64,000 nucleotides of DNA from Alphaproteobacteria bacterium. GTDB lineage: Bacteria; Pseudomonadota; Alphaproteobacteria; SMXP01. The DNA is taken from positions 452,916-516,915 of the forward strand of contig OZ243948.1 of the NCBI GenBank assembly GCA_965214255.1, in the 5' to 3' direction. The notes below the pieces were generated by a model. The model was not told the origin of the DNA. It saw only the letters and a program-made list of their open reading frames with translations, and searched no databases. The translations under genes and the position numbers were made by a program. This document shows, piece after piece, positions 11,486-55,650 of this stretch; within the stretch, counting starts at the first letter, position 1, and every line of letters starts with the position of its first letter.

Positions 11486-13351
11486 TTAGTTGGCCGGCCG
11501 CATCCACCACGTATCGATTTTTGTACCTGTCAATGGCACGCGGTTCGGCGGTTGAAGTTGAGACCAGTAGGCGATGCGGTCTGCCGGCGAGTAGTAAAAG
11601 GGAATGACATAATGACCCGACAACAAAACGCGGTCGAGCGCGCGGGTAGCGGCTACGAGTTCCTCGCGCGTCTGGGCGTTCGTCATGGCCGCGACCATCG
11701 TGTCAACCGCATCGCTTTTGACGCCTGCATAATTGAATGTTCCCTCGATATCGGCCTCCTTGGAGCCGAAGCGAAATAGCTGTTCGTTTCCCGGGGAAAG
11801 TGTTCCCTGCCATCGCTCGGGCAACATGTCGAAATCATACGTTTGCTGACGTTCAATGAACTGTGAATTGTCCACCATTCTGATGTTGACATCGAGTCCC
11901 AGATTTTCCAGTGATTTGGCGAAAATCAAGGCAATCCTCTGATGAAGCGCCAACTGCACCATGATCTCGAATTCGAAGGGTTCGCCGGTTGCCTGATTAA
12001 CTAGCCGGCCATCGCTGACGCTCCAACCGGCTTCCCCAAACAATTGAAGCGCCTTTCGTCTGTTGTTCCGCACCGCCGCGGGAGAGCCGCCTTGTGGCGC
12101 TTGCCATCCATTCGCCAATATTTTCGGCTTTACGGACTCAAGGTATGGACTCAGGAGTTTCAGTTCCAACGGATCGGCAGGTTTTCCGTTCGAGCTCAGG
12201 TCCGAATTGCCGAAATAACTTTTTACTCTTTCGTATGTTCCGTAAAAGAGGTTTTTATTCATCCATTCAAAATCGAATAGATGAATCAGCGCGTTTCGCA
12301 CTCTTTCATCCTTAAAGACCTCTTTTCTTGTGTTGAAAACGAAACCATACATGTCAGCCGTGCGTCCGTGCGGAAACTGTCGTCTTTGAATACGGCCGTC
12401 CTTTATTGCCGGAGAGTCGTATGCGGTCGCCCAATTTTTAGCCGAGCGTTCGTAGCGAATTAAAACCTCTCCTTTTTTGAAGGCTTCAAGCAAAGAAGCT
12501 TCATCTCGGAAGAACTCGTAACGGATTGAATCGAAATTGTGGTGCCCTCTTTTTACCGCCAGGTTTTCGGCCCAATAGTTCGGATTACGCGTGAACACCA
12601 AGCGTCTTCCCGGGACCACCTCGGAGATCGTATAAGGCCCGCTGCCGATTGGCGGGTCGAGACTGCTCTTGCCGAAATCCCGAGGCTCATGGAATGACTT
12701 CGACAGAATAGGCATAAGACCCATGATCAGCGGCAGTTCACGATTACCGGTCTCTTCGAATACGAAGCGCACTTTGTTTGGCGCCGTGCGTTGAACGTCA
12801 CGAACGAGCGAATAGAAACGCCGCATGTTGGGGCGCCCCTGTTCCTTGAGCGTTGCCCAAGAAAAAATCACGTCTTCTATCGTGATTGATGAGCCGTCGG
12901 AAAAACGCGCCTCGGGGCGCAACTCGAACTCGACCCAGCTTCTGTCATCCGGGACTTCGACCGTTCGGGCAATTAATCCGTACAGTGAGAAAGGTTCATC
13001 TTGTCCTCGCATCATCAGGGATTCAAACGTGTGAAGTTGGACAACCAAATAGTTGAGTTCGAAGTCAAATCGGACTTTTGGAGAGTTGCCTTGCACGATG
13101 AACGGATTGAGGCTGTCGAATGTGCCGACTTCTCCAACCGCGAGTTCTCCGCCTTTTATGGCGAACGGGTCCACATGGTCAAAGCCCGAAAAGCCCGCTT
13201 CATAGCGCGGCGCGCCGTGCATGGCGATAGCATGCTTGGCGCCGGTGCCGGGGGAGGAGGTTTCATTGTCGGCTGCCAGAGGCGCCTTCGACAGCGACCC
13301 GACAATCACGTTGACACACAGACCGAGAGCTATGGCATGAGTCCGGTTCAT
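11486..13351 (-). CDS. ABC transporter substrate-binding protein, family 5 (oligopeptide/YejA-like), periplasmic
   Basis: About 620 aa mature size; signal peptide MNRTHAIALGLCVNVIVGSLSKAPLAA after trimming the long ORF; overall SBP_bac_5 architecture; no adjacent permease or ATPase genes. Confidence 0.7.
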   Translation of the reverse strand: MNRTHAIALGLCVNVIVGSLSKAPLAADNETSSPGTGAKHAIAMHGAPRYEAGFSGFDHVDPFAIKGGELAVGEVGTFDSLNPFIVQGNSPKVRFDFELNYLVVQLHTFESLMMRGQDEPFSLYGLIARTVEVPDDRSWVEFELRPEARFSDGSSITIEDVIFSWATLKEQGRPNMRRFYSLVRDVQRTAPNKVRFVFEETGNRELPLIMGLMPILSKSFHEPRDFGKSSLDPPIGSGPYTISEVVPGRRLVFTRNPNYWAENLAVKRGHHNFDSIRYEFFRDEASLLEAFKKGEVLIRYERSAKNWATAYDSPAIKDGRIQRRQFPHGRTADMYGFVFNTRKEVFKDERVRNALIHLFDFEWMNKNLFYGTYERVKSYFGNSDLSSNGKPADPLELKLLSPYLESVKPKILANGWQAPQGGSPAAVRNNRRKALQLFGEAGWSVSDGRLVNQATGEPFEFEIMVQLALHQRIALIFAKSLENLGLDVNIRMVDNSQFIERQQTYDFDMLPERWQGTLSPGNEQLFRFGSKEADIEGTFNYAGVKSDAVDTMVAAMTNAQTREELVAATRALDRVLLSGHYVIPFYYSPADRIAYWSQLQPPNRVPLTGTKIDTWWMRPAN

Positions 13352-13605: not shown

Positions 13606-13935
13606 CTAGTGGGTATTCCCGTGCAGAAGTTCGTACACGCCGTTATCCAGCTTGCCGAATATTTCCTTGACCTGTGGATGGCGTACCGGTTCGCCGCTAT
13701 CGTCGGGCAACAAGTTCTGCTCGGAGACGTAGGCAATGTAGTCCGTTTCTTCGTTTTCAGCGAGCAAGTGATAGAACGGCTGATCTTTTCGCGGGCGTAT
13801 GTTTTCGGGGATCGACAGCCACCATTCCTCGGAATTGCTGAAAGTAGGGTCGACGTCAAAGATCACACCCCGAAAGAGAAAAATGCGATGCCGGACGACT
13901 TGGCCGATATTGAATTTTGCAAACCGATTATTCAT
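13606..13935 (-). CDS. hspQ: Heat-shock protein HspQ (YccV-like hemimethylated-DNA-binding domain)
   Basis: FNIGQVVRHRIFLFRGVIFDVDP matches the HspQ/YccV core; ATG at 13935 (the ORF-track start is GTG). Confidence 0.75.
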   Translation of the reverse strand: MNNRFAKFNIGQVVRHRIFLFRGVIFDVDPTFSNSEEWWLSIPENIRPRKDQPFYHLLAENEETDYIAYVSEQNLLPDDSGEPVRHPQVKEIFGKLDNGVYELLHGNTH

Positions 13936-21012: not shown

Positions 21013-21013
21013 T

Positions 21014-24000
21014 ATGACGGACGGACAGATCAGCCTCGACCTTGCGGGACGGCCGAGCGCCCGCGTCATCCTCGACCGCATCCGCTCCGAAAGCCGGGAC
21101 GAGTCCGAGAAGGGGCGCTGGTTCGAGCAATTGTTCATGCGGGTCGCGCTTCAACAGCCCGAGTTCGAGATCGACGGGCTGTGGCGCTGGCCCGACTGGC
21201 CCGAGCGCGAGGCGATGACCGGCCTCGATGGCCGCGACATCGGAATCGACCTCGTGGCGCGGCGGACTTCGGGAGAGTGGGTCGCGATCCAGTGCAAGTG
21301 CTACGACGACCGGCACACATTGGGTAAGGGCGAAATCGACAAGTTTCTCGGCGGCTCGCAGCAGCAGGTCTTCCGCCTGCGGTGGGTCGTGGCGACATGC
21401 CGCTGGGGACCGAATGCGGAACGGGCAATCCTGAACGCTTATCCGCAGGTCGCGCAGATCGACTTCCGCGAGTATCTCGACATCCAGGTCGAGGAGGAGA
21501 ACGCCAGCCGCCCGGTACAGGAACCCTGGCCGCTTCAGGCGGAGGCCATCGAAGACGCTGTCGCCGGACTTGGGCCCCACGACCGGGGCCGCCTCATCAT
21601 GGCCTGCGGCACGGGCAAAACTTTCACCGCCCTTCGCATCGCCGAGCAGGTCGTCGAAGACGGGCGGCGAATCCTTTTCGCGGCGCCGACCATCGCGCTG
21701 GTCTCCCAAGCGCGGCGCGAATGGCTGCGGCAGACGACGCGCAAGCTGGAGTGCATCGTCGTGTGCTCGGACCCGACCGCCGGCGGGCGCAACGAGAACG
21801 AAGACATCCGAGTGTCCGAGCTTGAGTGCCCGGTTACGACGAAACCGGCCGAGATCGCCCGCGCGCTCGACGGCGGCGGCCCGACCCGCGTCGTGTTCTG
21901 CACGTACCACTCGCTGGGCAGAGTCACCGAGGCGCAGGCGCTTCACGGCGCCCCGCAGTTCGATCTGGCCATCGCCGACGAGGCCCATCGGACGACCGGC
22001 GCGCTTCTCGGAGAGCGCGGACCCCGCGGCGCCAGGAAAGTGGACTTTCAGGAGTTCCATGACGACGCGCGGCTGCGCGCCCGCAAGCGCCTCTACATGA
22101 CCGCCACGCCGCGGCTCTACACCGAACGGTCCAAGAGCAAGCTCGCCGGACAGGGGATCAAGGTCGTCGACATGGGCGACTTAGGCGTCTACGGCCCCGA
22201 ACTCCACCGGCTGCCGTTCGCCAAAGCGGTGGACCACGGCATGCTCTCCGATTACCGGGTGATCGTTCTCGGCGTCAGCGAGGAAAGCGTGACGCCGGGA
22301 CTGCGCCGCCGGCTGGAAGGACTCGATCAATCGCAGACCCGTAAGCAGGCCCCGACCGTCAACGACATGACGCGCGTGCTCGGCGTCTCGCTCGCGGTCA
22401 ACGGCGTGACCGAAGGCAAGGCCCTGGAGCAGCCGGGCAAGCTGCCGCGCACCATGGCGTTCGCGAACAGCATTCTGCGCTCGAAGTGGTATGCCGATGC
22501 GCTCATGGAAAGCGAGGTTCTGAGGGCCACGACCCGGCGGATGAAGGACGGACGGGCGATGAAGGTCGTCGCCCGTCACCTCGATGCCTCGGCGAGCGCC
22601 CTGAAGCGCAACCGGGAACTGCGCGCGCTGGCCCATGCCGACCGTGACGAGGAATGCCGGGTGGTTTGCAACGTCAAGCTGTTCACCGAAGGGGTGGACG
22701 TGCCGCGGCTCGATGCCGTCGCGTTCCTCGACCCCCGCGACAGCCAGGTCGATGTGGTGCAGGCCGTCGGACGGGTCATGCGCAAGGCGCCGGGCAAACG
22801 TTTCGGCTACATCATCGTCCCTGTCGTCGTCGAACCGGGCCGCGACGTCGCCGCCGCGCTCGAGCACGGCAGCGAAGGCTACAGGACCGTCGGCCGGGTG
22901 CTGCGGGCGCTTCAGGCCCATGACGGACGCCTCGCGGAATCGCTGGCCAGCTTCGTCAAGGTCTACGAACAGAGCAAGGAGACGGCGCCGGGGTCGGTCG
23001 GCGGCTTGGCCGAGACCGGGAGCGAATCCATCCAGCCCGAACTCGACCTGAGGCAGGCCGAGCAGGGGATTTACGCCCATGTCGCCGCCGCTTCGGGGCT
23101 GGGCAAGCCCGGCCGCCTCGTCGCCGACGAGATCGCCGACGCCGTCCGCCGCGCCAGCGCCGTGCTCGCGCAAGAAGAATTGGAAGACCCTCTCGCGTCG
23201 GCCCTCGACCTCGTGCCGGAGGACGACGGCGGGGCGAAGGGCGTTTGCACCGTCGCCGCGCTCATGCTCTGCAACGCCTGCCTGCTCCAGCGCCGCCTGC
23301 GCGACGAGCCGGAAATGAAGATGATCGTGCGGCTCGACAAGGTCGCGGGCGCGGGCAACCCGAGAGAGGTTCTCAGGATCGCCTGGGAGTCGATCCTCGA
23401 AAAGGACTACGCGCCGGTGTTCAGGCCCGCTCTCGCGGTCCTCGCGGCTCTGCGCGACGCCAAGGCCGTCGACGACGCCGTCCGCGCCCTTGCCGAGTGC
23501 GCCAACCGCGTTGCCGATTCCTTGAGCGATCTCGGCTACGACCACGCGGGGCCGCTCTACCATCGCATTCTCGGCTCCGCCAAGAGCGACGGCGCGTTCT
23601 ACACCAACAACCTTTCGGCGGTCATGCTCGCGCGTCTGGCGCTCGGCGAGGACTTCGCCGACTGGTCGAACCGGGACGCGGTGGCGGGACTGCGGATCAT
23701 CGACCCCGCGTGCGGAACCGGGACGCTGCTGATGGCGGCGCTTCGAACCGTCAAGGCGCGCGTCGCCGCTGCCGGAGAGATGACCGCCGAGGACCGCAGC
23801 GTTCTGCACAAGCGGCTGGTGGAAGACGTGCTGTGCGGCCTCGACATCAACCGCCACGGCGTCCAACTCGCCGCCTGCAACATGACCCTCGGCGCCCCGA
23901 GCGTCGACTACGAACGCATGAACCTCGTCACCATGCCCCATGGACCGCAGAGAGACGGAGCGCCGAAGGCCGGCTCGCTGGAAATCCTCACCGCCGCCGA

Positions 24001-24727
24001 CGATGACCGGGACCTGCGCGCGTTGACGAGGCCGCCGCGCTCTCTCGACGGCCTCGACGCCGCCCAGGTCGATGACAGCGAAGACATCCGGTTCCCCCTG
24101 CACGACCTCGACGCCGTGATCATGAACCCGCCGTTCACAGCCAACGAGAACCGGAACAAGAAATACGGCGATGTTGGCCGTAAGGCCATGCAGCGTCATG
24201 AACTTGGAATACAGGAACATGTAGAGGGCAGGGACCCGACGGCGGGCGGCGTCATTACCGCGAACAGCATCCGGACCTTCTTCAGCCCCCTCGCGGACAT
24301 GCTTTTGGACGAGACGCGGGGAACCCTCGCCACGGTGATCCCGACCGCGGCCTGCACCGGGCCGAGCGGCGCGGCGGAACGCAGATTCCTCGCCCGACGC
24401 TTTCACGTCGAAACCGTGGTGACCAGCCACGACCCGCGGCGGCCGAACTTCAGCGAGAACACGAACATCCATGAATCGCTGCTCATATGCCGTCGGCGAA
24501 AAGCGGGCGATGGGGACGACCGACCGACCCGCTTCGTCGCCCTGCGCGCGATGCCCTCGACGCCGGAGGAGGCCGTCGAGGCCGTGAACGCCGTCCGTAA
24601 GGGCGCCGCCGGCAAGTGGACCGCCCCCCCCCAGCTGCGAGCAGCCCGCGGCGCGCATCGCGGAGGGAGACTGGCGCCCGTGCCAGTTTTTCGACGGGAA
24701 GCTCGTAACCGCCGCGATGCGGCTTGA
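21014..24727 (+). CDS. Type ISP-like single-polypeptide restriction-modification enzyme (Mrr_cat nuclease + SF2 helicase-like motor + gamma-class N6-adenine methyltransferase), N-terminal ~1237 aa; truncated by a frameshift at a C9 tract
   Basis: N-terminal PD-(D/E)xK Mrr_cat_2 motif …DIGIDLVARRTSGEWVAIQCKCY…; helicase motif I MACGTGKTF, motif II DLAIADEAHR, motif VI QAVGRVMR; methyltransferase motif I IIDPACGTGTLLMAA and motif IV VIMNPPF; ATG at 21014 with GGGAG RBS; the reading frame decays right after the C9 run (24624–24632). Confidence 0.8.
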   Translation: MTDGQISLDLAGRPSARVILDRIRSESRDESEKGRWFEQLFMRVALQQPEFEIDGLWRWPDWPEREAMTGLDGRDIGIDLVARRTSGEWVAIQCKCYDDRHTLGKGEIDKFLGGSQQQVFRLRWVVATCRWGPNAERAILNAYPQVAQIDFREYLDIQVEEENASRPVQEPWPLQAEAIEDAVAGLGPHDRGRLIMACGTGKTFTALRIAEQVVEDGRRILFAAPTIALVSQARREWLRQTTRKLECIVVCSDPTAGGRNENEDIRVSELECPVTTKPAEIARALDGGGPTRVVFCTYHSLGRVTEAQALHGAPQFDLAIADEAHRTTGALLGERGPRGARKVDFQEFHDDARLRARKRLYMTATPRLYTERSKSKLAGQGIKVVDMGDLGVYGPELHRLPFAKAVDHGMLSDYRVIVLGVSEESVTPGLRRRLEGLDQSQTRKQAPTVNDMTRVLGVSLAVNGVTEGKALEQPGKLPRTMAFANSILRSKWYADALMESEVLRATTRRMKDGRAMKVVARHLDASASALKRNRELRALAHADRDEECRVVCNVKLFTEGVDVPRLDAVAFLDPRDSQVDVVQAVGRVMRKAPGKRFGYIIVPVVVEPGRDVAAALEHGSEGYRTVGRVLRALQAHDGRLAESLASFVKVYEQSKETAPGSVGGLAETGSESIQPELDLRQAEQGIYAHVAAASGLGKPGRLVADEIADAVRRASAVLAQEELEDPLASALDLVPEDDGGAKGVCTVAALMLCNACLLQRRLRDEPEMKMIVRLDKVAGAGNPREVLRIAWESILEKDYAPVFRPALAVLAALRDAKAVDDAVRALAECANRVADSLSDLGYDHAGPLYHRILGSAKSDGAFYTNNLSAVMLARLALGEDFADWSNRDAVAGLRIIDPACGTGTLLMAALRTVKARVAAAGEMTAEDRSVLHKRLVEDVLCGLDINRHGVQLAACNMTLGAPSVDYERMNLVTMPHGPQRDGAPKAGSLEILTAADDDRDLRALTRPPRSLDGLDAAQVDDSEDIRFPLHDLDAVIMNPPFTANENRNKKYGDVGRKAMQRHELGIQEHVEGRDPTAGGVITANSIRTFFSPLADMLLDETRGTLATVIPTAACTGPSGAAERRFLARRFHVETVVTSHDPRRPNFSENTNIHESLLICRRRKAGDGDDRPTRFVALRAMPSTPEEAVEAVNAVRKGAAGKWTAPPQLRAARGAHRGGRLAPVPVFRREARNRRDAA
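24624..24632 (+). repeat. Homopolymeric C9 tract at the frameshift point inside the Type ISP-like R-M gene
   Basis: …GTGGACCGCCCCCCCCCAGCTGCGAGC…; C8 or C11 would give an uninterrupted ORF. Confidence 0.9.
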
Positions 24728-25409
24728 ACGGACGAAGGGGCTCGCGCCGCTCGGCGGGCAATATCGTCTCGGGCCCGCAGGGCAGCGTATTCGCGATGCC
24801 TTCCGTCCCGCCGCCGACGGCGGTTACCGCGTATTCTGGGGCCGCTCGAAGGACTTGCGGACGACCATGGAGGCCGCCCCGGAACGGAATGTCGCCGACA
24901 AGAAAGAAGCGCTCGCCGCGCGTTACCGGCAACAGGCGGGGCACCTGTTGTTGGCGGCGAAGTTCAACACGCAATCCGGTCGGCTGGTGGCGATTTTCAG
25001 CGCCGCGCCCGCTCTGGGCTCGATGTGGGTTCCCGTTCAGGCCCGCGCGATGAGCGTGGAAGAGGCGAAAGCGCTGTGCGCATGGTGCAACGGCACGCTC
25101 GGCATGCTCGGATTCCTCATGAGACGAGGATCAACGCTGATGAATCCGTCGTTCTCGCAGGCCGATCTGGCCACGCTGCCCGTGCCGGACTTCAAGACGG
25201 CGAGCGCCGCCGTCCTCGCCGCGGCCTACGAGGAGACGAAGCGCGCCCCGGTAAAGCCGTGGAAGAACGCCGCCGATGACGACATGCGCGACCGTCTCGA
25301 CAAGGCGGCGGCGCGGACGACGGGGATCGATATCGAAACGATCAGGGACTTGAGAGCGCGGATCGGCCGCGAGCCGACCGTCTCCAACGAACCCATCGCG
25401 TTCGATTAG
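24717..25409 (+). CDS. C-terminal (putative target-recognition) segment of the Type ISP-like R-M enzyme, in the +1 frame relative to the upstream part
   Basis: This frame is open from directly after the C9 tract (…PP|SCEQPAARIAEGDWRPCQFFDGKLVTAAMRLERTKGLAPL…) to 25409; deleting one C fuses it to the upstream ORF, giving a ~1465-aa protein, the size of LlaGI-type enzymes. Confidence 0.6.
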   Translation: MRLERTKGLAPLGGQYRLGPAGQRIRDAFRPAADGGYRVFWGRSKDLRTTMEAAPERNVADKKEALAARYRQQAGHLLLAAKFNTQSGRLVAIFSAAPALGSMWVPVQARAMSVEEAKALCAWCNGTLGMLGFLMRRGSTLMNPSFSQADLATLPVPDFKTASAAVLAAAYEETKRAPVKPWKNAADDDMRDRLDKAAARTTGIDIETIRDLRARIGREPTVSNEPIAFD

Positions 25410-25488
25410 CGTTCGGTTAGCCTTCGACCGCAGCCGGTCTCCGATGTGATATTATCGCGGTTTTTCATGACAATCGGAGAGAAAAGCC

Positions 25489-26385
25489 GTGACGGATATT
25501 CGAAAAGGCATCGACCGGCGTGCGGCGTTGATAGTGGCGGGCGCGGCCGCGGTCAGCGGGACGCCGTCGGCGGCCGCTGCTCGCGCCCTCGATTTGGAAG
25601 ACCCCGTCGATCTGTTGGAAGCCGTGGTCAAGGTCCGAAACGACATTTCGGGCGAACAGGCCATGACCTGGTCGGCCGGTTACGTGTGGAGCCGTATCGA
25701 CGGGCGCGAAAGCCAAATTCTTCTGAGAACCGAGGCGATCACGGTCACGCGCGCGTTGAAGCGCGATTGGGGATATGTCTGGATCAGCAAAGAGGCGCTC
25801 TATTTCGAAGATCCGGACACGGAAGACGTTATCGAATCGTGGCGCAATCCGTTCCTCGACCGCGACGTTCAAGTGTTTCAGTTGCGCAACGACACGGTGA
25901 ACTATGAATATCGTTATGACGCGCCGGGCGCGTGGGCGCCGCGCTATGTCGAGAATTCGGGAGACGTCTTGTTTTACAACGATCTCTTCTTTATGGCGCC
26001 GTCGCCCATGAGTCCCGCGGACTATCCTCGATATGTAGGGAGCGACTATTATCAGGGGGCCGGGATTTACAATTTCGCCGTCAAACGCGCGGACCTCGAC
26101 GACACTGCGGTAACGTCCGCGCCGAGCACGTCGTCGTGGACATCCGTGCGCCAATGGCTGCCGTGGATGGAAATGGGCAGTTGGGCGGGAGGATTGGTCG
26201 TCACCACCCGCGGCAAAAAGCTGCCGAACGGCGCCGCCGATCTGCCGCCCAAGTTCAGACGCTATCTCGAAACCAGCGACCCCGGGTTTTTGGAGGTCTC
26301 GTCCGAGCCCGTGCTCGGAAAGAACCGTTTCTTTTACGAACAGTTCAAAGATTACGTCGATGCGCGGGACAACGCGTCGAATTGA
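25489..26385 (+). CDS. Tat-signal secreted protein of unknown function (DUF)
   Basis: DRRAALIVAGAAAVSG twin-arginine signal; balanced composition, Trp/Tyr-rich (…YVWISKEALYFEDPDTEDVIESWRNPF…) compared with the Arg-rich antisense ORF. Confidence 0.5.
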   Translation: MTDIRKGIDRRAALIVAGAAAVSGTPSAAAARALDLEDPVDLLEAVVKVRNDISGEQAMTWSAGYVWSRIDGRESQILLRTEAITVTRALKRDWGYVWISKEALYFEDPDTEDVIESWRNPFLDRDVQVFQLRNDTVNYEYRYDAPGAWAPRYVENSGDVLFYNDLFFMAPSPMSPADYPRYVGSDYYQGAGIYNFAVKRADLDDTAVTSAPSTSSWTSVRQWLPWMEMGSWAGGLVVTTRGKKLPNGAADLPPKFRRYLETSDPGFLEVSSEPVLGKNRFFYEQFKDYVDARDNASN

Positions 26386-51914: not shown

Positions 51915-52853
51915 TCATCGCCGCCGTTTCCGACGTCCCTTGATGTCGGCCGTCAGCGGCGCGCGCATGGTTTCATAGAGCTTGAACAGATGCCGGACGC
52001 GCTCGCGTTCGGAGGCGAAGCCGCTACGTCGGTAGAGACGGTCCACGGCGCTATCGAGGCGGGCATGGGCGCGGCGCAAGTCCGGCGGCGTCAGGTCCGG
52101 GTCGTAGAGATTGGCCAGCGCGGCCCCGGCGTGGGCGGCGCGGGCGTCGAGCACGGCTTGGGCGAGCGGTTCCAGCCTCAAAAGGTCGGCGCTTCCGTCC
52201 GCAAAGCCCGGCGGCAGCGGGAAGGTATTGTAGACGAGGCCGATGGAGTAGCGGTAGTCGCTTTTCAGTCGTCCGCCGATCTGGCGCAGCCAGGCCATGT
52301 GCATGGCGGAGGTGAGCAGGGCAAAGTCGGTGAGCGCGGCGTTTTCCAGAATCTTCATGGCATTGCTGGGAATGACCGGCGGTTCAAGCCAGCCGATGGG
52401 CGCGTATTCGCGCCGCTCCGAACTCGTTTCGGGCATGACCAGGAAAGGCGCGTTGGGGATGACGTTGACGTGGTAGAGCGTCGGCGTTGCCGCGAGCTTG
52501 ACCGTGGGTCCGCTCTTGCTGGCCTCGCGGTAGGCGCGGACGGCGGCGATCCGTTCGCGCACCCGCGGCAACTCTGCCAGCACATCAGGCGGCGCGTCGT
52601 GCAAGGCCAGGATCCAGCGCTCGCCGCCTTGCAGATATTCACGCGCGCCGACGAACGGGTGCAGATACGGCGCGGCCCTCGGTTCCGCGTCCAGGAACGC
52701 GGCGCGTTCCGCCTCGTCGAAGATGTAATGCCCGCCGTCGATGGGCTTGGAGCCGATGATCAGCCGCCCCATGCCGTTGATCGGGCGGCTTTCCTCGCGC
52801 ACCGTGAGGTGCGGGTCGCTCAGATCTCCGGCATCGAACAGATAGGGCGACAA
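51915..52853 (-). CDS. C-terminal segment of an MmeI-family (Type IIL/IIG) restriction-modification enzyme; out of frame with the upstream part
   Basis: …GSKPIDGGHYIF…, …VYNTFPLP… and the C-terminal helical region match the conserved MmeI-family C-terminal half; this frame stays open upstream to the G9 tract. Confidence 0.65.
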   Translation of the reverse strand: MSPYLFDAGDLSDPHLTVREESRPINGMGRLIIGSKPIDGGHYIFDEAERAAFLDAEPRAAPYLHPFVGAREYLQGGERWILALHDAPPDVLAELPRVRERIAAVRAYREASKSGPTVKLAATPTLYHVNVIPNAPFLVMPETSSERREYAPIGWLEPPVIPSNAMKILENAALTDFALLTSAMHMAWLRQIGGRLKSDYRYSIGLVYNTFPLPPGFADGSADLLRLEPLAQAVLDARAAHAGAALANLYDPDLTPPDLRRAHARLDSAVDRLYRRSGFASERERVRHLFKLYETMRAPLTADIKGRRKRRR

Positions 52854-54717
52854 CGCCGCGTGGCGGCTTTCCTCCGGCGCGCCCTTGATGTCGGGATAAT
52901 TGAACAGACGCTTCTGCGCTCGTGTACGCCCCCCCCCAACCGAGCCCGACGATCACCACATGCACGTGGGCCTTGCCGCGTGCGTCCGAGCCCCAGACGA
53001 AGGTGCGGTGCGCGAAGGCGATTTCCAGCCCGCAGCGCTCGAACAGCAGCGGCCAAAGCTGCGCCACCTGTTCGCCCTGGCTGATCGAGTTGGTGGCGAC
53101 GAAGCCGATACGGGTACCGCCGCCTCTCACATACTCCCCCGCCTTGATGAACCACGCGGCGACGTAATCCAGCGTCCCCCCGCTCTTGCCCAGCGCCGCG
53201 ATGCGGCGTACCTGCGCGCGCTGCTCCGGCGTCTGAAACTTCGCCCCCGCAAACGGCGGGTTGCCGAACAGGTATGAGCAGGTCTGCGGCGGCAGCACCG
53301 CCCGCCAGTCGATCTCCAGCGCGTCGCCGTGGACGATGCGCGGCGATTTCTCAAGGGGGATGCGCGCATAAGTCCGGCCGAACTCCAGGCTCAGCCGGTT
53401 GTTCATGATGTGGTCCATCATCCACAGCGCGGTCTCCGCGATGCGCGCCGGGAACTCGCCGAGTTCGATCCCGTAGAACCGGTCGACGTCGATCACCGAC
53501 AGGGTCTCAGCCAGAGCGTCGGTCTGCCGTCCGTCCGGCGCCCTCGGGTGGATTTCCTTCAGCACCTCGATTTCCAGAAGCCTCAGTTCGCGGTAGGCGA
53601 TGATGAGGAAGTTGCCGCAGCCGCAGGCGGGGTCGAAAAAACGCATGGCGCCCAGCTTCTCCTGAAACGCCAGCAGGTCGGGGCGCCGGCGGCTGTCGCG
53701 GCGCGCTTGCAGCCGCGCGAACTCGGCGCGCAGATCGTCCAGAAACAGCGGCTCGATCACTTTCAAGATGTTCGTCTCGGTGGTGTAGTGCGCGCCTTGG
53801 GCGCGGCGCTCCGCCGGGTCCATGACCGACTGGAACAGCGCGCCGAAGACCGCGGGCGAGATGTTCGACCAGTCGAAGCGGCAGGCGTCGAGCAGCTTGG
53901 CGCGCATGTCTGAGTCGAAGGAGGGGATGCGCAGGGGCCCGTCGAACAGGTCGCCGTTGATATGGGGGAAGCGGGCCAGATCCTCGTCCAGCGTGGCGAC
54001 CCGCTCGCTCTCCGGCGTGTCCAGCACCTGGAACAGTTGCGCCAGCCAGGGCCCGAGGCCGGCGCCGTCCTCGGCGGTGCGGGTCTCGATGAAATCGAGG
54101 AAGATGTCGCGCGGCTCGAAGATGCCGGTATCGTCCGCGAACAGGCAGAAGACGATGCGCACGAGGAACCGCTCCAGGTCGTGCCCGCGGTAGCCGGCCG
54201 CGTCGAGGGCGTCGTGGAGCCGTCCGACCAGTTCTGCGGCCTCGATATTGGCCGGGTCCTGGTCTCGGAAGGCGCGGCGCTCGACGCCGAGGATGAAGCC
54301 GAACGCCTCGACATGGGCGGGCAGGTCGGCGAGGGCGAAGGCCGTGGTTCGGCGCTGGTCCAGATCGTGAAGCTCGAAGGTCTGAAAATCGCTCACCAGA
54401 ATGTAGCGGGGTCTCTCGCGCTCGGGCAGGGCGTCGAAATACGCCCCCGCCTGGTCCAGAGCCCCGGCGAGACCGCGCCCCGCGCTTTTCTGCTCGACCA
54501 TCAGCACGCCGGGCCAGAACAGGTCGATGAAGCCGCGCCTCTCGTCCAGCTTGGCCACGTGCGCCTCGTAGCGCGCCACCGTGCGGCGGCGGACGCCGAA
54601 CACTTCGAAGAAGTCGTTGTAGAAACTCTGGGTCTCGCCTCTCTCGTAAGACGCCTCGCCCCACTCCCGGGCAAAAGCGGCCGCCCGCGCGCGTACCTCG
54701 TTCCATGACAGGCGCAC
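52639..54717 (-). CDS. MmeI-family Type IIL restriction-modification enzyme, N-terminal nuclease + N6-adenine methyltransferase part; truncated by a frameshift at a G9 tract
   Basis: N-terminus MRLSWNEVRARAAAFAREWGEASYERGETQSFYNDFFEVFGV…FIDLFWPGVLMVEQKSAGRGL closely parallels the MmeI nuclease domain (D-x-E-x-K); methyltransferase motif I FDPACGCGNFLIIAY and motif IV GNPPFAG; the coding sense is lost directly after …HVHVVIVGLGWGG (poly-G). Confidence 0.8.
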   Translation of the reverse strand: MRLSWNEVRARAAAFAREWGEASYERGETQSFYNDFFEVFGVRRRTVARYEAHVAKLDERRGFIDLFWPGVLMVEQKSAGRGLAGALDQAGAYFDALPERERPRYILVSDFQTFELHDLDQRRTTAFALADLPAHVEAFGFILGVERRAFRDQDPANIEAAELVGRLHDALDAAGYRGHDLERFLVRIVFCLFADDTGIFEPRDIFLDFIETRTAEDGAGLGPWLAQLFQVLDTPESERVATLDEDLARFPHINGDLFDGPLRIPSFDSDMRAKLLDACRFDWSNISPAVFGALFQSVMDPAERRAQGAHYTTETNILKVIEPLFLDDLRAEFARLQARRDSRRRPDLLAFQEKLGAMRFFDPACGCGNFLIIAYRELRLLEIEVLKEIHPRAPDGRQTDALAETLSVIDVDRFYGIELGEFPARIAETALWMMDHIMNNRLSLEFGRTYARIPLEKSPRIVHGDALEIDWRAVLPPQTCSYLFGNPPFAGAKFQTPEQRAQVRRIAALGKSGGTLDYVAAWFIKAGEYVRGGGTRIGFVATNSISQGEQVAQLWPLLFERCGLEIAFAHRTFVWGSDARGKAHVHVVIVGLGWGGAYTSAEASVQLSRHQGRAGGKPPRGVVALSVRCRRSERPAPHGARGKPPDQRHGAADHRLQAHRRRALHLRRGGTRRVPGRGTEGRAVSAPVRRRA
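52929..52937 (-). repeat. Homopolymeric G9 (C9 on the + strand) tract at the frameshift point inside the MmeI-family gene
   Basis: + strand …cgtgtacgCCCCCCCCCaaccgag…; a G8 would read …GLGWGGRTRAQKRLFNYPDIKGAPEESRHAALSPYLFDAGD… straight into the downstream ORF. Confidence 0.9.
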
Positions 54718-54720
54718 GGC

Positions 54721-55650
54721 CTACAGTGCTTCCTGATCGAAATAGTCCTCGTCGATCTGCTTGATCTCGTGAGTGACGCGCGTCCGCACGCCGACTCCAT
54801 GCTGAACCATGAGTTGCGCCAGTTTCTCGCCGTCGATGAGCACGATCCGCTTCGGGCTCCGCGCCAAATATTTCTCGGCCGCAGGCGTGAATCTGGCGGT
54901 GGTGACGAATACGCCCTTGGTCATGCCCGCAGCGTCGAGCGCGCCCGCGAAGTCGCGCAGGGCGCTCTCACCGACGGTGTTGCCTTCAGCGTACCTTTTC
55001 GCCTGTATGTAGATCTTATCCAAGCCAAGCGCGTCCTCATTTATTATGCCGTCGATCCCGCCGTCGCCTGAACCCCCGGTCACTTGGCCTCTCTCGGCAA
55101 CGCCTCTACCGTAGCCCATTTTGATCAACAAATCGCGAACCGCGCGTTCAAGAAACGCGGGTTCGGCGCTGCGAACCCGGTCCAGCACGTCGGCTTCCAG
55201 TTCGCCGCGCAATCGCAGGGCGGCGCGTTCCAGCGCTTCCTCCGGCGTTTCAGAAATGTCATCGCTCCGAGTTTCCGTCTCACCCTTGTCGGAAGACGGA
55301 GCGTTCGCCCTGCGCGACCACCCGGCGTAATCCGGGTACTCTCTCAGCAGTTTTATGTCGATGCGCGAAGGGTCGCGGGACAACAAGTCTGCGCCTTCCT
55401 GCGTCAATCTATATACGCCGCGGCCAACGCGTTCCAGAAGACCGGCACTGTGCATGTACTTTACGGCCCAACTCACGCGGTTCACGAATATCGTCTGGCG
55501 GCCGCTCGGGAGCAGTTCCCGAACATCGTCGGCGGAAAGCCCCTCGGCGGCGGCGACCCGGTCGCGAATTTCCGACACCGGCGTATCGGCGCGGGAGGCG
55601 AACGCCTTGAGGACGGGAAGCATCAATGACTGAAAGTCAGGAACGGGCAT
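54721..55650 (-). CDS. mrr: Type IV (modification-dependent) restriction endonuclease Mrr
   Basis: Mrr_N winged-helix N-terminus MPVPDFQSLMLPVLKAF…; C-terminal Mrr_cat …GGIDGIINEDALGLDKIYIQAKRY… PD-(D/E)xK/QxK motif. Confidence 0.85.
   Translation of the reverse strand: MPVPDFQSLMLPVLKAFASRADTPVSEIRDRVAAAEGLSADDVRELLPSGRQTIFVNRVSWAVKYMHSAGLLERVGRGVYRLTQEGADLLSRDPSRIDIKLLREYPDYAGWSRRANAPSSDKGETETRSDDISETPEEALERAALRLRGELEADVLDRVRSAEPAFLERAVRDLLIKMGYGRGVAERGQVTGGSGDGGIDGIINEDALGLDKIYIQAKRYAEGNTVGESALRDFAGALDAAGMTKGVFVTTARFTPAAEKYLARSPKRIVLIDGEKLAQLMVQHGVGVRTRVTHEIKQIDEDYFDQEAL

What the first reader, a model, noticed from the sequence alone, without database searches (positions are those of the whole stretch)
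21014..25409. Giant Type ISP-like R-M gene switched off by a C9 homopolymer; one-base slippage restores a ~1465-aa enzyme
The ORF from 21014 encodes an Mrr_cat PD-(D/E)xK nuclease, an SF2 helicase-like motor (GTGKT/DEAH/QxxGRxxR) and a gamma-class N6-adenine methyltransferase (DPACGTGT…NPPF). Immediately after a run of nine C (24624–24632) the frame decays into Arg/Ala-rich nonsense and stops at 24727. The +1 frame, by contrast, is open from the C-tract through 25409 and reads like a genuine globular C-terminal domain (the expected target-recognition domain). A C8 or C11 tract would yield one continuous protein of LlaGI-like size. Long mononucleotide tracts inside mod/res genes are the classic phase-variation switch in host-adapted pathogens, but are not something I would expect in a free-living alphaproteobacterial-type genome. 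No other gene in this window carries a homopolymer this long, so the tract is not generic to the sequence. Because the single polypeptide supplies both restriction and modification, OFF is a safe state, and switching would toggle the whole methylome and phage barrier.
Basis: partly seen in the sequence, partly recalled or inferred. Interest (0 to 1): 0.85.

Follow-up and report, generated by a model that had tools for sequence, protein, structure and literature searches.

The report
Frameshifted Type ISP restriction gene, C9 tract
A giant one-protein restriction-modification gene in an uncultured marine alphaproteobacterium is cut off from its DNA-recognition domain by a run of nine C's, and relatives of this gene in other uncultured marine bacteria (many from sponge microbiomes) have repeatedly gained similar G/C runs, which points to an on/off slippage switch that has not been shown directly.

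Summary
C9 sits at 24624-24632. The 1237-aa ORF (21014-24727) stops after the tract, and the +1 frame is open to 25409. Removing one C gives a 1464-aa protein that aligns end to end with about 1465-aa homologues (up to 83% identity).

C9 is not a sequencing error: an independent Illumina contig of a 98.5%-identical strain carries the same C9 and the same split. No homologue has a C-run at this site, so it is a lineage-specific ~7-nt insertion.

Seven of 48 homologous genes in other MAGs carry their own G/C runs (G9 to G26, C15, C19) at inter-domain linkers. These arose independently. Two are in frame and five are out of frame; four of those five are otherwise intact.

One claim is wrong: a second C9 (52929-52937) frameshifts an MmeI-type R-M gene, and a sister strain has an in-frame allele.

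Best reading: a slippage-prone contingency switch, currently OFF (about 0.5). Length variation at this tract was not seen (n=2), so a plain pseudogene remains a serious rival. It would be a new member of a known kind.

The parts
21014..24727 (+). Upstream reading frame of the Type ISP-like gene (1237 aa): nuclease, motor and methyltransferase, followed by 31 out-of-frame codons and a stop
   Evidence: It is identical to the source genome's gene call P0363.
21167..21502 (+). Mrr_cat_2 PD-(D/E)xK nuclease domain (aa 52-163)
   Evidence: Pfam PF13156, E=5e-26.
21527..22939 (+). SF2 helicase-like ATPase (aa ~172-642), with Walker A 21602-21622, DEAH 21977-21988 and motif VI 22760-22783
   Evidence: Pfam ResIII/DEAD/Helicase_C. 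phmmer gives 4xqk_A LlaBIII E=6.5e-91 over aa 20-642 and 5ffj_A LlaGI E=2.1e-77.
23576..24496 (+). Gamma-class N6-adenine methyltransferase domain, with motif I DPACGTGT 23702-23725 and motif IV NPPF 24125-24136. It ends at the conserved HESLLICRR.
   Evidence: Pfam N6_Mtase, E=4e-7.
24497..24523 (+). Hypervariable MTase-TRD linker ('site B'). No run is present here in the window, but homologues L007, L019, L030 and L042 carry G12, G9, G18 and C15 here, and L056 carries C19 at the equivalent position by query coordinates.
   Evidence: all five; sequences; DNA alignment of L007, L019, L030, L042.
24624..24632 (+). C9 homopolymer. It is a ~7-nt insertion relative to all homologues, and it shifts the frame by +1. 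C8 or C11 would be in frame.
   Evidence: The same C9 is present in the independent contig L155.
24633..25409 (+). Target-recognition domain in the +1 frame (258 codons plus stop), intact, with the conserved GDWRPCQF at 24666-24689. The source genome annotates its last 230 aa (24717-25409) as a separate gene.
51915..54717 (-). Second frameshifted fused R-M gene, of the MmeI family (Type IIG/IIL). It is 933 aa when one base is removed.
   Evidence: about 80% identity and 100% coverage to ~930-aa homologues whose precomputed Pfam hits are five MmeI-family domains, PF20464-PF20467 and PF20473. PADLOC REase_MTase_IIG, E=0.
52929..52937 (-). Second 9-base run (G9 on the coding strand), in the loop after the ...HVHVVIVGL strand. 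The frame is shifted by +1.
   Evidence: Sister strain L152 keeps G9 but lacks one adjacent T and is in frame. L151 is identical to the window.
54721..55650 (-). Intact Mrr-type (Type IV) restriction gene next to the MmeI-like gene. It belongs to the same small defence islet between lolD and dnaE.
   Evidence: Pfam Mrr_N + Mrr_cat. PADLOC mREase_IV, E=1.1e-78.

Best explanation
The locus is a horizontally acquired, single-polypeptide Type ISP-like restriction-modification gene. Its order is Mrr nuclease, SF2 translocase, gamma N6-adenine methyltransferase, then a C-terminal target-recognition domain (TRD).

A C-run has been inserted in the flexible stretch just before the TRD. With nine C's the ribosome leaves the frame, and the product is a 1237-aa protein without a TRD. 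That protein cannot find a target, so neither restriction nor methylation occurs. This is a safe OFF state.

I infer that slipped-strand mispairing at the run (C9 to C8, or to C11) restores the 1464-aa enzyme. On that view the run acts as a heritable, reversible contingency switch for a phage barrier and its methylation mark.

Shown: the anatomy, the frameshift, the intact TRD, the reality of C9, its lineage-specific origin, and the recurrence of such runs in homologues in both ON and OFF states.

Inferred: that the run actually changes length at a useful rate in this organism, and that switching is selected.
For: 1. Removing one C gives a protein that is collinear (100% coverage, up to 83% identity) with about 1465-aa homologues.
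3. Between the two C9-bearing strains, dN/dS in the TRD frame is about 0.42, without stops or indels.
4. C9 is found in two independent assemblies of diverged strains, one of them an Illumina (SPAdes) contig.
5. All ~50 homologues covering the site read W-x-T|V-Y-E-Q-P, with a 2-aa gap relative to the window. The run is therefore a de novo ~7-nt insertion in a linker where length varies.
6. Seven of 48 homologous loci have in-gene G/C runs of 9 or more at inter-domain linkers: aa ~920 (L004, L036) and aa ~1165 (L007, L019, L030, L042, L056). Separately, in-frame GGGG/GGGGG stretches at aa ~660-670 occur in proteins P0051, P0054, P0079 and P0103 (DNA not examined). The runs are G20 and G12 in frame; G26, G9, G18, C15 and C19 out of frame. 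In 4 of the 5 OFF cases the run is the only lesion.
7. For the six run-bearing loci that could be tested, the nearest relative of each is run-less or carries its run at a different site. For the window, L001 at 88.5% is run-less. This implies independent origins (L056 could not be included).
8. Non-run lesions in the family are deletions, duplications or large insertions, not homopolymer errors. The assemblies are therefore not error-ridden.
9. A second fused R-M gene in the same window has a 9-run frameshift. An in-frame allele exists in a strain that is 99.9% identical.
10. The chromosomal slot is a strain-variable defence hotspot, holding a DISARM-like island in a sister strain.
Against: - No tract-length variation was observed. 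Both assemblies covering tract 1 have C9.
- All three assemblies covering tract 2 have a 9-run. There the ON/OFF difference is a single T next to the run, not a change in run length.
- Half of the family's copies in other MAGs are broken in various ways, so gene decay is common and a frameshift at a run may simply be one more route to it.
- ON:OFF among run-bearing homologues is 2:5 (2:6 counting the window). That is what random lengths would give, so there is no sign of selection for ON.
- Consensus assemblies hide minority lengths, and I had no reads.
- The mismatch-repair status and slippage rate of this organism are unknown.
Confidence: 0.5

Rival explanations
1. Plain pseudogene. The run is a mutational hotspot that happened to expand and inactivate a dispensable, horizontally acquired R-M gene. 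The gene is on its way to decay, and reversion is irrelevant.
For: - 34 of 67 related loci are broken by deletions, duplications, large insertions or stops.
- L019 has both a run frameshift and a ~2.4-kb insertion near its 3' end.
- C9 is shared by two strains that differ at 21 sites in 1.4 kb. This fits an old, fixed lesion.
- The slot is replaceable: a sister strain carries a DISARM-like island there instead.
Against: - It does not explain why runs arose independently several times, always in linkers, and grew to 12-26 bases in a coding sequence.
- In 4 of 5 OFF homologues, and in the window, the run is the only lesion.
- Two run-bearing homologues are in frame.
- The TRD frame shows no stop in 258 codons, and dN/dS is about 0.42.
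Confidence: 0.3
2. The gene is expressed despite the frameshift. RNA polymerase slippage, or ribosomal frameshifting, on the C9 run yields a fraction of full-length enzyme, so the gene is constitutively 'low' rather than OFF.
For: - Transcriptional slippage on runs of 9 or more is established for A/T runs in other bacteria (general knowledge).
- The downstream frame is conserved.
- Very long runs (G18-G26) in homologues would give heterogeneous mRNA whatever the DNA length.
Against: No data here bear on RNA. Slippage on C/G runs of 9 is, to my knowledge, less efficient than on A/T runs. The in-frame alleles (L004, L007) show that the normal state is a direct read-through.
Confidence: 0.1
3. 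Two-piece enzyme. The truncated R-motor-M protein and the separately translated 230-aa TRD fragment (ATG 24717) reassemble, like an S subunit in Type I or Type IIB systems.
For: - The source annotation calls two genes.
- TRDs function as separate subunits in Type I and Type IIB systems (fold matches to HsdS and BsaXI S).
- An H. pylori Type ISP fragment consisting of the methyltransferase and specificity domains alone is an active methylase (PMC3936762).
Against: - All intact homologues are fused.
- The 230-aa fragment would lack the first 28 residues of the domain, including the near-invariant GDWRPCQF motif.
- No convincing ribosome-binding site precedes 24717 (sequence).
Confidence: 0.05
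4. Sequencing or assembly error: the true tract is C8 and the gene is simply intact.
For: Homopolymer length is the commonest error of long-read platforms. Both 9-runs in the window would be corrected by removing one base.
Against: - An independent Illumina SPAdes contig from another strain has C9 and the same split ORFs.
- L151 reproduces the second run exactly.
- A7 and T7 runs inside other genes of the window are in frame.
- Lesions in other MAG copies are not at homopolymers.
Confidence: 0.03

Closest known systems
Type ISP restriction-modification enzymes LlaGI and LlaBIII (PDB 5FFJ, 4XQK)
   Same: One polypeptide with an N-terminal Mrr-like nuclease, an SF2 translocase, a gamma N6-adenine methyltransferase and a C-terminal TRD. 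Residues 20-642 match LlaBIII at E=6.5e-91. The size is similar (1464 aa against 1406 and 1578 residues for the deposited LlaGI and LlaBIII chains).
Cj0031, the phase-variable Type IIG R-M enzyme of Campylobacter jejuni with an intragenic polyG tract (PMC4889913)
   Same: A fused restriction-plus-methylation polypeptide is switched by a G/C homopolymer inside the ORF, and OFF removes both activities at once.
   Different: Cj0031 has no helicase motor. Its host is a pathogen with well-documented tract-length variation. Here the enzyme class is Type ISP-like, the host is an uncultured marine alphaproteobacterium, the run sits at the MTase-TRD junction, and switching is not demonstrated.
Phasevarions: phase-variable Type III mod and Type I hsd genes of Haemophilus, Neisseria, Helicobacter and others (reviewed in PMC12707154)
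   Same: A simple-sequence repeat in an R-M gene causes reversible frameshifting, a bet-hedging logic.
   Different: Those are multi-subunit systems in host-adapted pathogens, and a regulon effect has been demonstrated for them. Nothing here bears on gene regulation.
Helicobacter pylori Type ISP loci HP0667-0669 and JHP0612-0613 (PMC3936762)
   Same: Type ISP genes found frameshifted in natural strains. Correcting the frameshifts restored an m6A methylase.
   Different: The paper states that those frameshifts are 'not due to sequence repeats'. Here the lesion is exactly at a 9-base run.
MmeI family Type IIL/IIG enzymes (for the second gene, 51915-54717)
   Same: The reconstruction aligns over its full length to homologues whose precomputed Pfam hits are five MmeI-family domains (PF20464-PF20467, PF20473), and to one PADLOC REase_MTase_IIG model over residues 3-919 (E=0).
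   Different: It carries a G9 run in a loop where 120 protein homologues and 80 metagenome loci have none.

Membership tests
Type ISP R-M enzymes (LlaGI/LlaBIII type) | N-terminal Mrr-like PD-(D/E)xK nuclease on the same polypeptide | tested here: met
   Pfam Mrr_cat_2 E=5e-26, aa 52-163.
Type ISP R-M enzymes (LlaGI/LlaBIII type) | SF2 helicase-like ATPase homologous to the LlaGI/LlaBIII motor | tested here: met
   phmmer against PDB: 4xqk_A E=6.5e-91 (aa 20-642) and 5ffj_A E=2.1e-77. GTGKT, DEAH and QxxGRxxR motifs are present.
Type ISP R-M enzymes (LlaGI/LlaBIII type) | Gamma-class N6-adenine methyltransferase domain following the motor | tested here: met
   Pfam N6_Mtase E=4e-7. Motif I DPACGTGT (aa 897) precedes motif IV NPPF (aa 1038).
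Type ISP R-M enzymes (LlaGI/LlaBIII type) | C-terminal target-recognition domain | tested here: met
Type ISP R-M enzymes (LlaGI/LlaBIII type) | Sequence homology of the coupler/MTase/TRD half to LlaGI or LlaBIII | tested here: inconclusive
   The phmmer match stops at aa ~642. Only generic MTase and TRD similarity is seen. PADLOC places the N-terminal half in REase_MTase_IIG/REase_MTase_I models.
Type ISP R-M enzymes (LlaGI/LlaBIII type) | ATP-driven translocation, cleavage on head-on collision, asymmetric target, one-strand methylation | not testable with these tools
   This is biochemistry, and no data are available here.
Simple-sequence-repeat phase-variable R-M genes (contingency loci) | Repeat inside the ORF whose unit gain or loss shifts the frame | tested here: met
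   C9 at 24624-24632. C8 or C11 gives a continuous 1464-aa ORF.
Simple-sequence-repeat phase-variable R-M genes (contingency loci) | Gene otherwise intact, so the lesion is reversible in principle | tested here: met
   258 open codons follow the tract, the TRD fold is predicted with high confidence, and dN/dS is about 0.42 between two strains.
Simple-sequence-repeat phase-variable R-M genes (contingency loci) | Repeat-length polymorphism within the species or population | tested here: not met
   Only two assemblies cover the tract (the window and L155), and both have C9. A metagenome scan allowing any length found nothing further. Reads were not available, so this is a weak test.
Simple-sequence-repeat phase-variable R-M genes (contingency loci) | ON and OFF alleles among close relatives | tested here: inconclusive
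   Not seen for this gene in the same species. Seen at family level: L004 and L007 are ON, while L036, L030, L042, L056 and L019 are OFF. Seen also for the neighbouring MmeI-like gene within the species: L152 ON, window and L151 OFF.
Simple-sequence-repeat phase-variable R-M genes (contingency loci) | Measured switching, with the methylation motif appearing and disappearing | not testable with these tools
   Needs reads, kinetics data or cultures.
MmeI-family Type IIL/IIG enzymes (second gene) | Full-length match to the MmeI-family domain set (N-terminal, helical, methyltransferase, TRD and C-terminal domains) | tested here: met
   Homologues at ~80% identity and 100% coverage carry five MmeI-family Pfam domains, PF20464-PF20467 and PF20473 (domain names for four of them appear in the gene table). 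PADLOC PDLC03598 E=0 over aa 3-919.

The most novel reading that the evidence does not exclude
G/C homopolymer runs at the module junctions of this Type ISP-like family are a convergently evolved contingency mechanism shared by uncultured, largely sponge-associated bacteria of many phyla (Alpha- and Gammaproteobacteria, Binatia, Acidobacteriota, Thermodesulfobacteriota, Actinomycetota). This would be the first phase-variable Type ISP enzymes, and a case of phasevarion-like bet-hedging in a mutualistic animal microbiome rather than in pathogens. The runs sit where N-terminal and C-terminal identity decouple, so long G runs might also promote TRD swapping by recombination.
Probability: 0.3. Interest if true: 0.75.

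Novelty: new member of a known kind. Interest (0 to 1): 0.55.

Why it matters
Phase-variable R-M systems are known almost only from host-adapted pathogens and from Type I, Type III and Type IIG enzymes. If the runs found here do switch, they would extend the principle in two ways. First, to the motor-driven Type ISP class. Second, to the dense, phage-exposed microbiome of sponges, where R-M systems are known to be enriched and laterally exchanged (PMC8163846).

Such switching would also mean that methylomes and phage barriers of these symbionts are heterogeneous within populations. That matters for methylation-based binning and for models of phage-host dynamics.

There is a practical consequence as well. 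Annotation pipelines currently report these genes as two ORFs or as pseudogenes.

Tried and rejected
- Exact look-ups of the window's ORFs in the contig index failed at first, because the source genome is not indexed there. The route that worked went through cluster mates to sister-strain contigs.
- A metagenome scan for the same locus with any tract length (flanks plus N{5,20}) found nothing.
- The sequencing-error explanation was rejected because an independent Illumina contig has C9.
- I first read the high conservation of the C-terminal 258 aa among the top hits as evidence against a TRD (note). That was rejected after finding two allelic classes (61-76% against 31-38% identity) and the TRD fold.
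- I asked whether the MmeI family also carries runs generally. None of 80 metagenome loci or 120 proteins has one at or near the site. The second run is therefore specific to this organism, not a family trait.
- The poly-C/G at the start of L018 is an Illumina contig-end artefact and was excluded.
- Literature searches for phase-variable Type ISP enzymes, or for homopolymer switching in sponge symbionts, found no report.
Full report
**1. What is in the sequence**

The run of nine C's is at 24624-24632, exactly as reported. The ORF from 21014 ends at 24727 after 31 out-of-frame codons. The frame shifted by +1 is open from the run to 25409. Deleting one C gives a single 1464-aa ORF, and adding two would do the same.

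The source genome's own annotation calls the two pieces as separate genes: 21014-24727 (1237 aa) and 24717-25409 (230 aa).

The window holds a second 9-base C run at 52929-52937, and it also shifts the frame of a gene.

**2. What the gene is**

Pfam finds Mrr_cat_2, ResIII/DEAD, Helicase_C and N6_Mtase on the repaired protein. Residues 20-642 match the solved Type ISP enzymes LlaBIII (E=6.5e-91) and LlaGI (E=2.1e-77). PADLOC files this half under fused REase-MTase models. The methyltransferase motifs are in gamma order: DPACGTGT at aa 897 and NPPF at aa 1038.

- CamA, M.BseCI, PglX, HsdS, BsaXI-S, MmeI and TaqI

Among homologues that are 70% or more identical overall, this domain falls into two classes, 61-76% and 31-38% identical to the window. 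That is the behaviour expected of a swappable specificity module.

The gene is therefore Type ISP-like in architecture and motor, with a TRD closer to Type IIG enzymes. The frameshift separates the enzyme from its TRD.

**3. Where it lives**

The window is chromosomal. It carries mfd, the nuo operon, proS, lolCD, dnaE and rpsB. The organism is an uncultured alphaproteobacterium. Its DnaE is 100% identical to a protein on a 2.79-Mb contig, and the nearest named relatives (Parvibaculaceae, Rhodobiaceae) are only about 58-60% identical.

The R-M gene sits in a GC-rich insert (0.63-0.69, against 0.50-0.58 nearby), between an NAD-binding protein gene and a DUF1838 gene. In the dominant sister strain of an independent metagenome, the same slot holds a DISARM-like island plus Vsr and a C5 methylase instead. 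The slot is thus a strain-variable defence hotspot.

All 68 related loci found in the genome collection are MAGs of many phyla, with up to 83% amino-acid identity. Many carry bin names of published sponge-microbiome sets; I recognise these prefixes from my own knowledge, and the sponge species of that study are named in PMC8163846. That paper also reports enrichment of R-M systems in sponge symbionts and lateral transfer among them.

**4. Is C9 real?**

Yes. Contig NODE_59206 of ENA assembly ERZ21849000 (SPAdes, 2.2x coverage) covers window 24141-25514. It has 21 mismatches, no gaps, the same C9 and the same two ORFs.

Other genes in the window read through A7 and T7 runs in frame. The lesions in other MAG copies of the family are deletions, small duplications or large insertions, not homopolymer slips.

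**5. How the run arose**

About 50 homologous genes cover the site. All read W-x-T followed directly by V-Y-E-Q-P, where the window (as C8) has W-T-A-P-P-S-C-E-Q-P. The run is thus a lineage-specific insertion of about seven bases. It lies in a stretch whose length varies in other homologues: one has an 18-aa insert just upstream.

**6. The key comparative result**

Scanning the 68 loci for G/C runs showed that this gene family is a repeated target.

| Site (query aa) | Locus | Run | State |
|---|---|---|---|
| ~920, loop after MTase motif I | L004 | G20 | ON, gene intact |
| ~920 | L036 | G26 | OFF |
| ~1165, linker HESLLICRR to PTRFVALR | L007 | G12 | ON, gene intact |
| ~1165 | L019 | G9 | OFF |
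| ~1165 | L030 | G18 | OFF |
| ~1165 | L042 | C15 | OFF |
| ~1165 | L056 (only 34% identical) | C19 | OFF |

- In four of the five OFF genes the run is the only lesion. L019 also carries a ~2.4-kb insertion near its 3' end.
- Proteins from the wider database add in-frame Gly runs at aa ~660-670, ~920 and ~1183.
- One contig (L034) ends in a G run exactly at the first site.
- For the six run-bearing loci that could be compared, the nearest relative of each is run-less or carries its run at a different site. For the window, L001 at 88.5% is run-less. The runs therefore arose independently (L056 could not be included).
- In total, 7 of 48 loci that span the gene carry an in-gene run of 9 or more. 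Six such runs lie in about 670 kb of flanks away from the gene, and three more lie within 100 nt of it.

**7. The second gene**

The run at 52929-52937 is G9 on the coding strand of a complete MmeI-family gene (54717 to 51915, minus strand). With one base removed it aligns without gaps to ~930-aa homologues. The window reads GLGWGGRTRAQKRLF where the homologues read GLDRRKAARAEKRLF. None of 120 proteins or 80 metagenome loci has a run there.

Two sister-strain contigs cover it. L151 is identical to the window and is OFF. L152 is 99.9% identical, keeps the 9-run, and lacks one adjacent T. It reads straight through to the normal stop.

Frame state at this locus is therefore polymorphic within the species. 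The run length is not: it is 9 in all three assemblies.

**8. Weighing the evidence**

For a contingency switch:
- the run was gained de novo in a tolerant linker
- runs arose convergently in homologues, up to 26 bases long, in both states
- the run is the only lesion, and the TRD frame is intact and apparently still constrained (dN/dS about 0.42 from 17 substitutions)
- a second fused R-M gene in the same genome has the same kind of lesion and a live ON allele

Against:
- no length variation was seen in the few assemblies available (n=2 here, n=3 for the second run)
- the family decays often (34 of 67 loci are broken)
- the ON:OFF ratio of 2:5 among run-bearing homologues is what chance lengths would give

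Composition alone does not make two 9-runs significant (P=0.125 under a local Markov model). However, the window has no G/C runs of 7 or 8 at all, while having 12 of length 6.

I put the switch at about 0.5, a plain pseudogene at 0.3, expression by transcriptional or ribosomal slippage at 0.1, a two-piece enzyme at 0.05 and sequencing error at 0.03.

**9. Novelty**

The mechanism is the classical one. It is known for Type III mod genes, Type I hsd genes and the Type IIG enzyme Cj0031 of Campylobacter (PMC4889913; review PMC12707154). My searches found no phase-variable Type ISP enzyme and no report of homopolymer switching in sponge symbionts. The frameshifted Type ISP genes of H. pylori are explicitly not at repeats (PMC3936762).

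I therefore file the finding as a new member of a known kind. The family-wide, cross-phylum recurrence of the runs is its most interesting aspect and has not been followed up.

Noticed in passing
window 51915-54717 (minus strand), run at 52929-52937; L151 and L152 at 11851-11859: A second fused R-M gene (MmeI family) is frameshifted at a 9-base G run that no homologue has. Sister strain L152 keeps G9 but lacks one adjacent T and is in frame. L151 is OFF like the window. The ON/OFF difference comes from an indel next to the run, not from a change in run length.
   Followed up: yes
L153 1-9887 (ENA ERZ21849000 NODE_378), equivalent to the slot at window ~21013-25460: In the dominant sister strain, the slot upstream of the DUF1838 gene holds a DISARM-like island (DrmE_C, NERD/UvrD-like helicase, a 1143-aa Helicase_C protein, MZB/DUF1998) plus Vsr and a C5 DNA methylase, instead of the Type ISP gene. 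The contig of a third assembly (L154, GCA_964347375.1) ends at the same boundary. This is a strain-variable defence hotspot.
   Followed up: partly
L001-L068 (genome-contig hits): The Type ISP-like gene is 70-83% identical across MAGs of very different phyla (Alpha- and Gammaproteobacteria, Latescibacterota, Binatia, Chloroflexota, Gemmatimonadota, Acidobacteriota, Thermodesulfobacteriota). Several genomes hold 2-3 copies. About half of the copies are broken by deletions, duplications or large insertions. The pattern suggests rampant lateral transfer and rapid turnover.
   Followed up: partly
L030 5912-5926 (G15), L019 5949-5957 (C9), L038 5850-5857 (C8): G/C runs also lie 45-150 nt upstream of the start of the family gene in three loci. 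They may be promoter or 5'-UTR tracts that affect expression rather than reading frame.
   Followed up: no
L057 2697-2708 (C12 on the coding strand): A 12-base run lies just upstream of the likely lipoprotein signal peptide of a large ORF that, from reading its translation, looks like a surface subtilisin-like protease. No domain search was run on it. This may be another tract-controlled surface gene in a related MAG.
   Followed up: no
L019 10258-12628; 12608-12615 and 13855-13862: The homologue in L019 is interrupted near its 3' end by a ~2.4-kb insertion (its content was not examined). A G8 run at 12608-12615, near the insertion's downstream end, and a C8 run at 13855-13862, about 1.1 kb beyond the end of the gene, sit in sequences that are reverse complements of each other (...ATCAGTAGGGGGGGGTGAGTAGATAC...). 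These may be repeats of a mobile element that carry G/C runs.
   Followed up: no
L151 13639-18336: The sister-strain contig matches the window up to 54716 (the start of the MmeI-like gene). It then continues into NmrA-like, CN_hydrolase and other genes instead of mrr-dnaE, while other contigs of the same samples (L149, L150) start inside or next to mrr. This is either a rearrangement or an assembly join through the multi-copy R-M gene.
   Followed up: no
window 54721-55650 (minus strand): An intact Mrr (Type IV, methyl-directed) restriction gene lies directly beside the frameshifted MmeI-like gene. A methyl-dependent nuclease next to a switchable methylase raises a compatibility question.
   Followed up: no
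L091 7619-7672; L092 618-661; L002 14754-14845: Paired G9...C11 (and C9...G14) runs lie in the flanks of other loci. In L002 they lie outside any long ORF; ORF context was not checked for L091 and L092. They look like G/C-run hairpins, and their function is unknown.
   Followed up: no
L018 1-102: This contig starts with C36/C12/C9/C17/G12. It is a typical poly-G artefact at the end of an Illumina contig and was excluded from all counts.
   Followed up: yes
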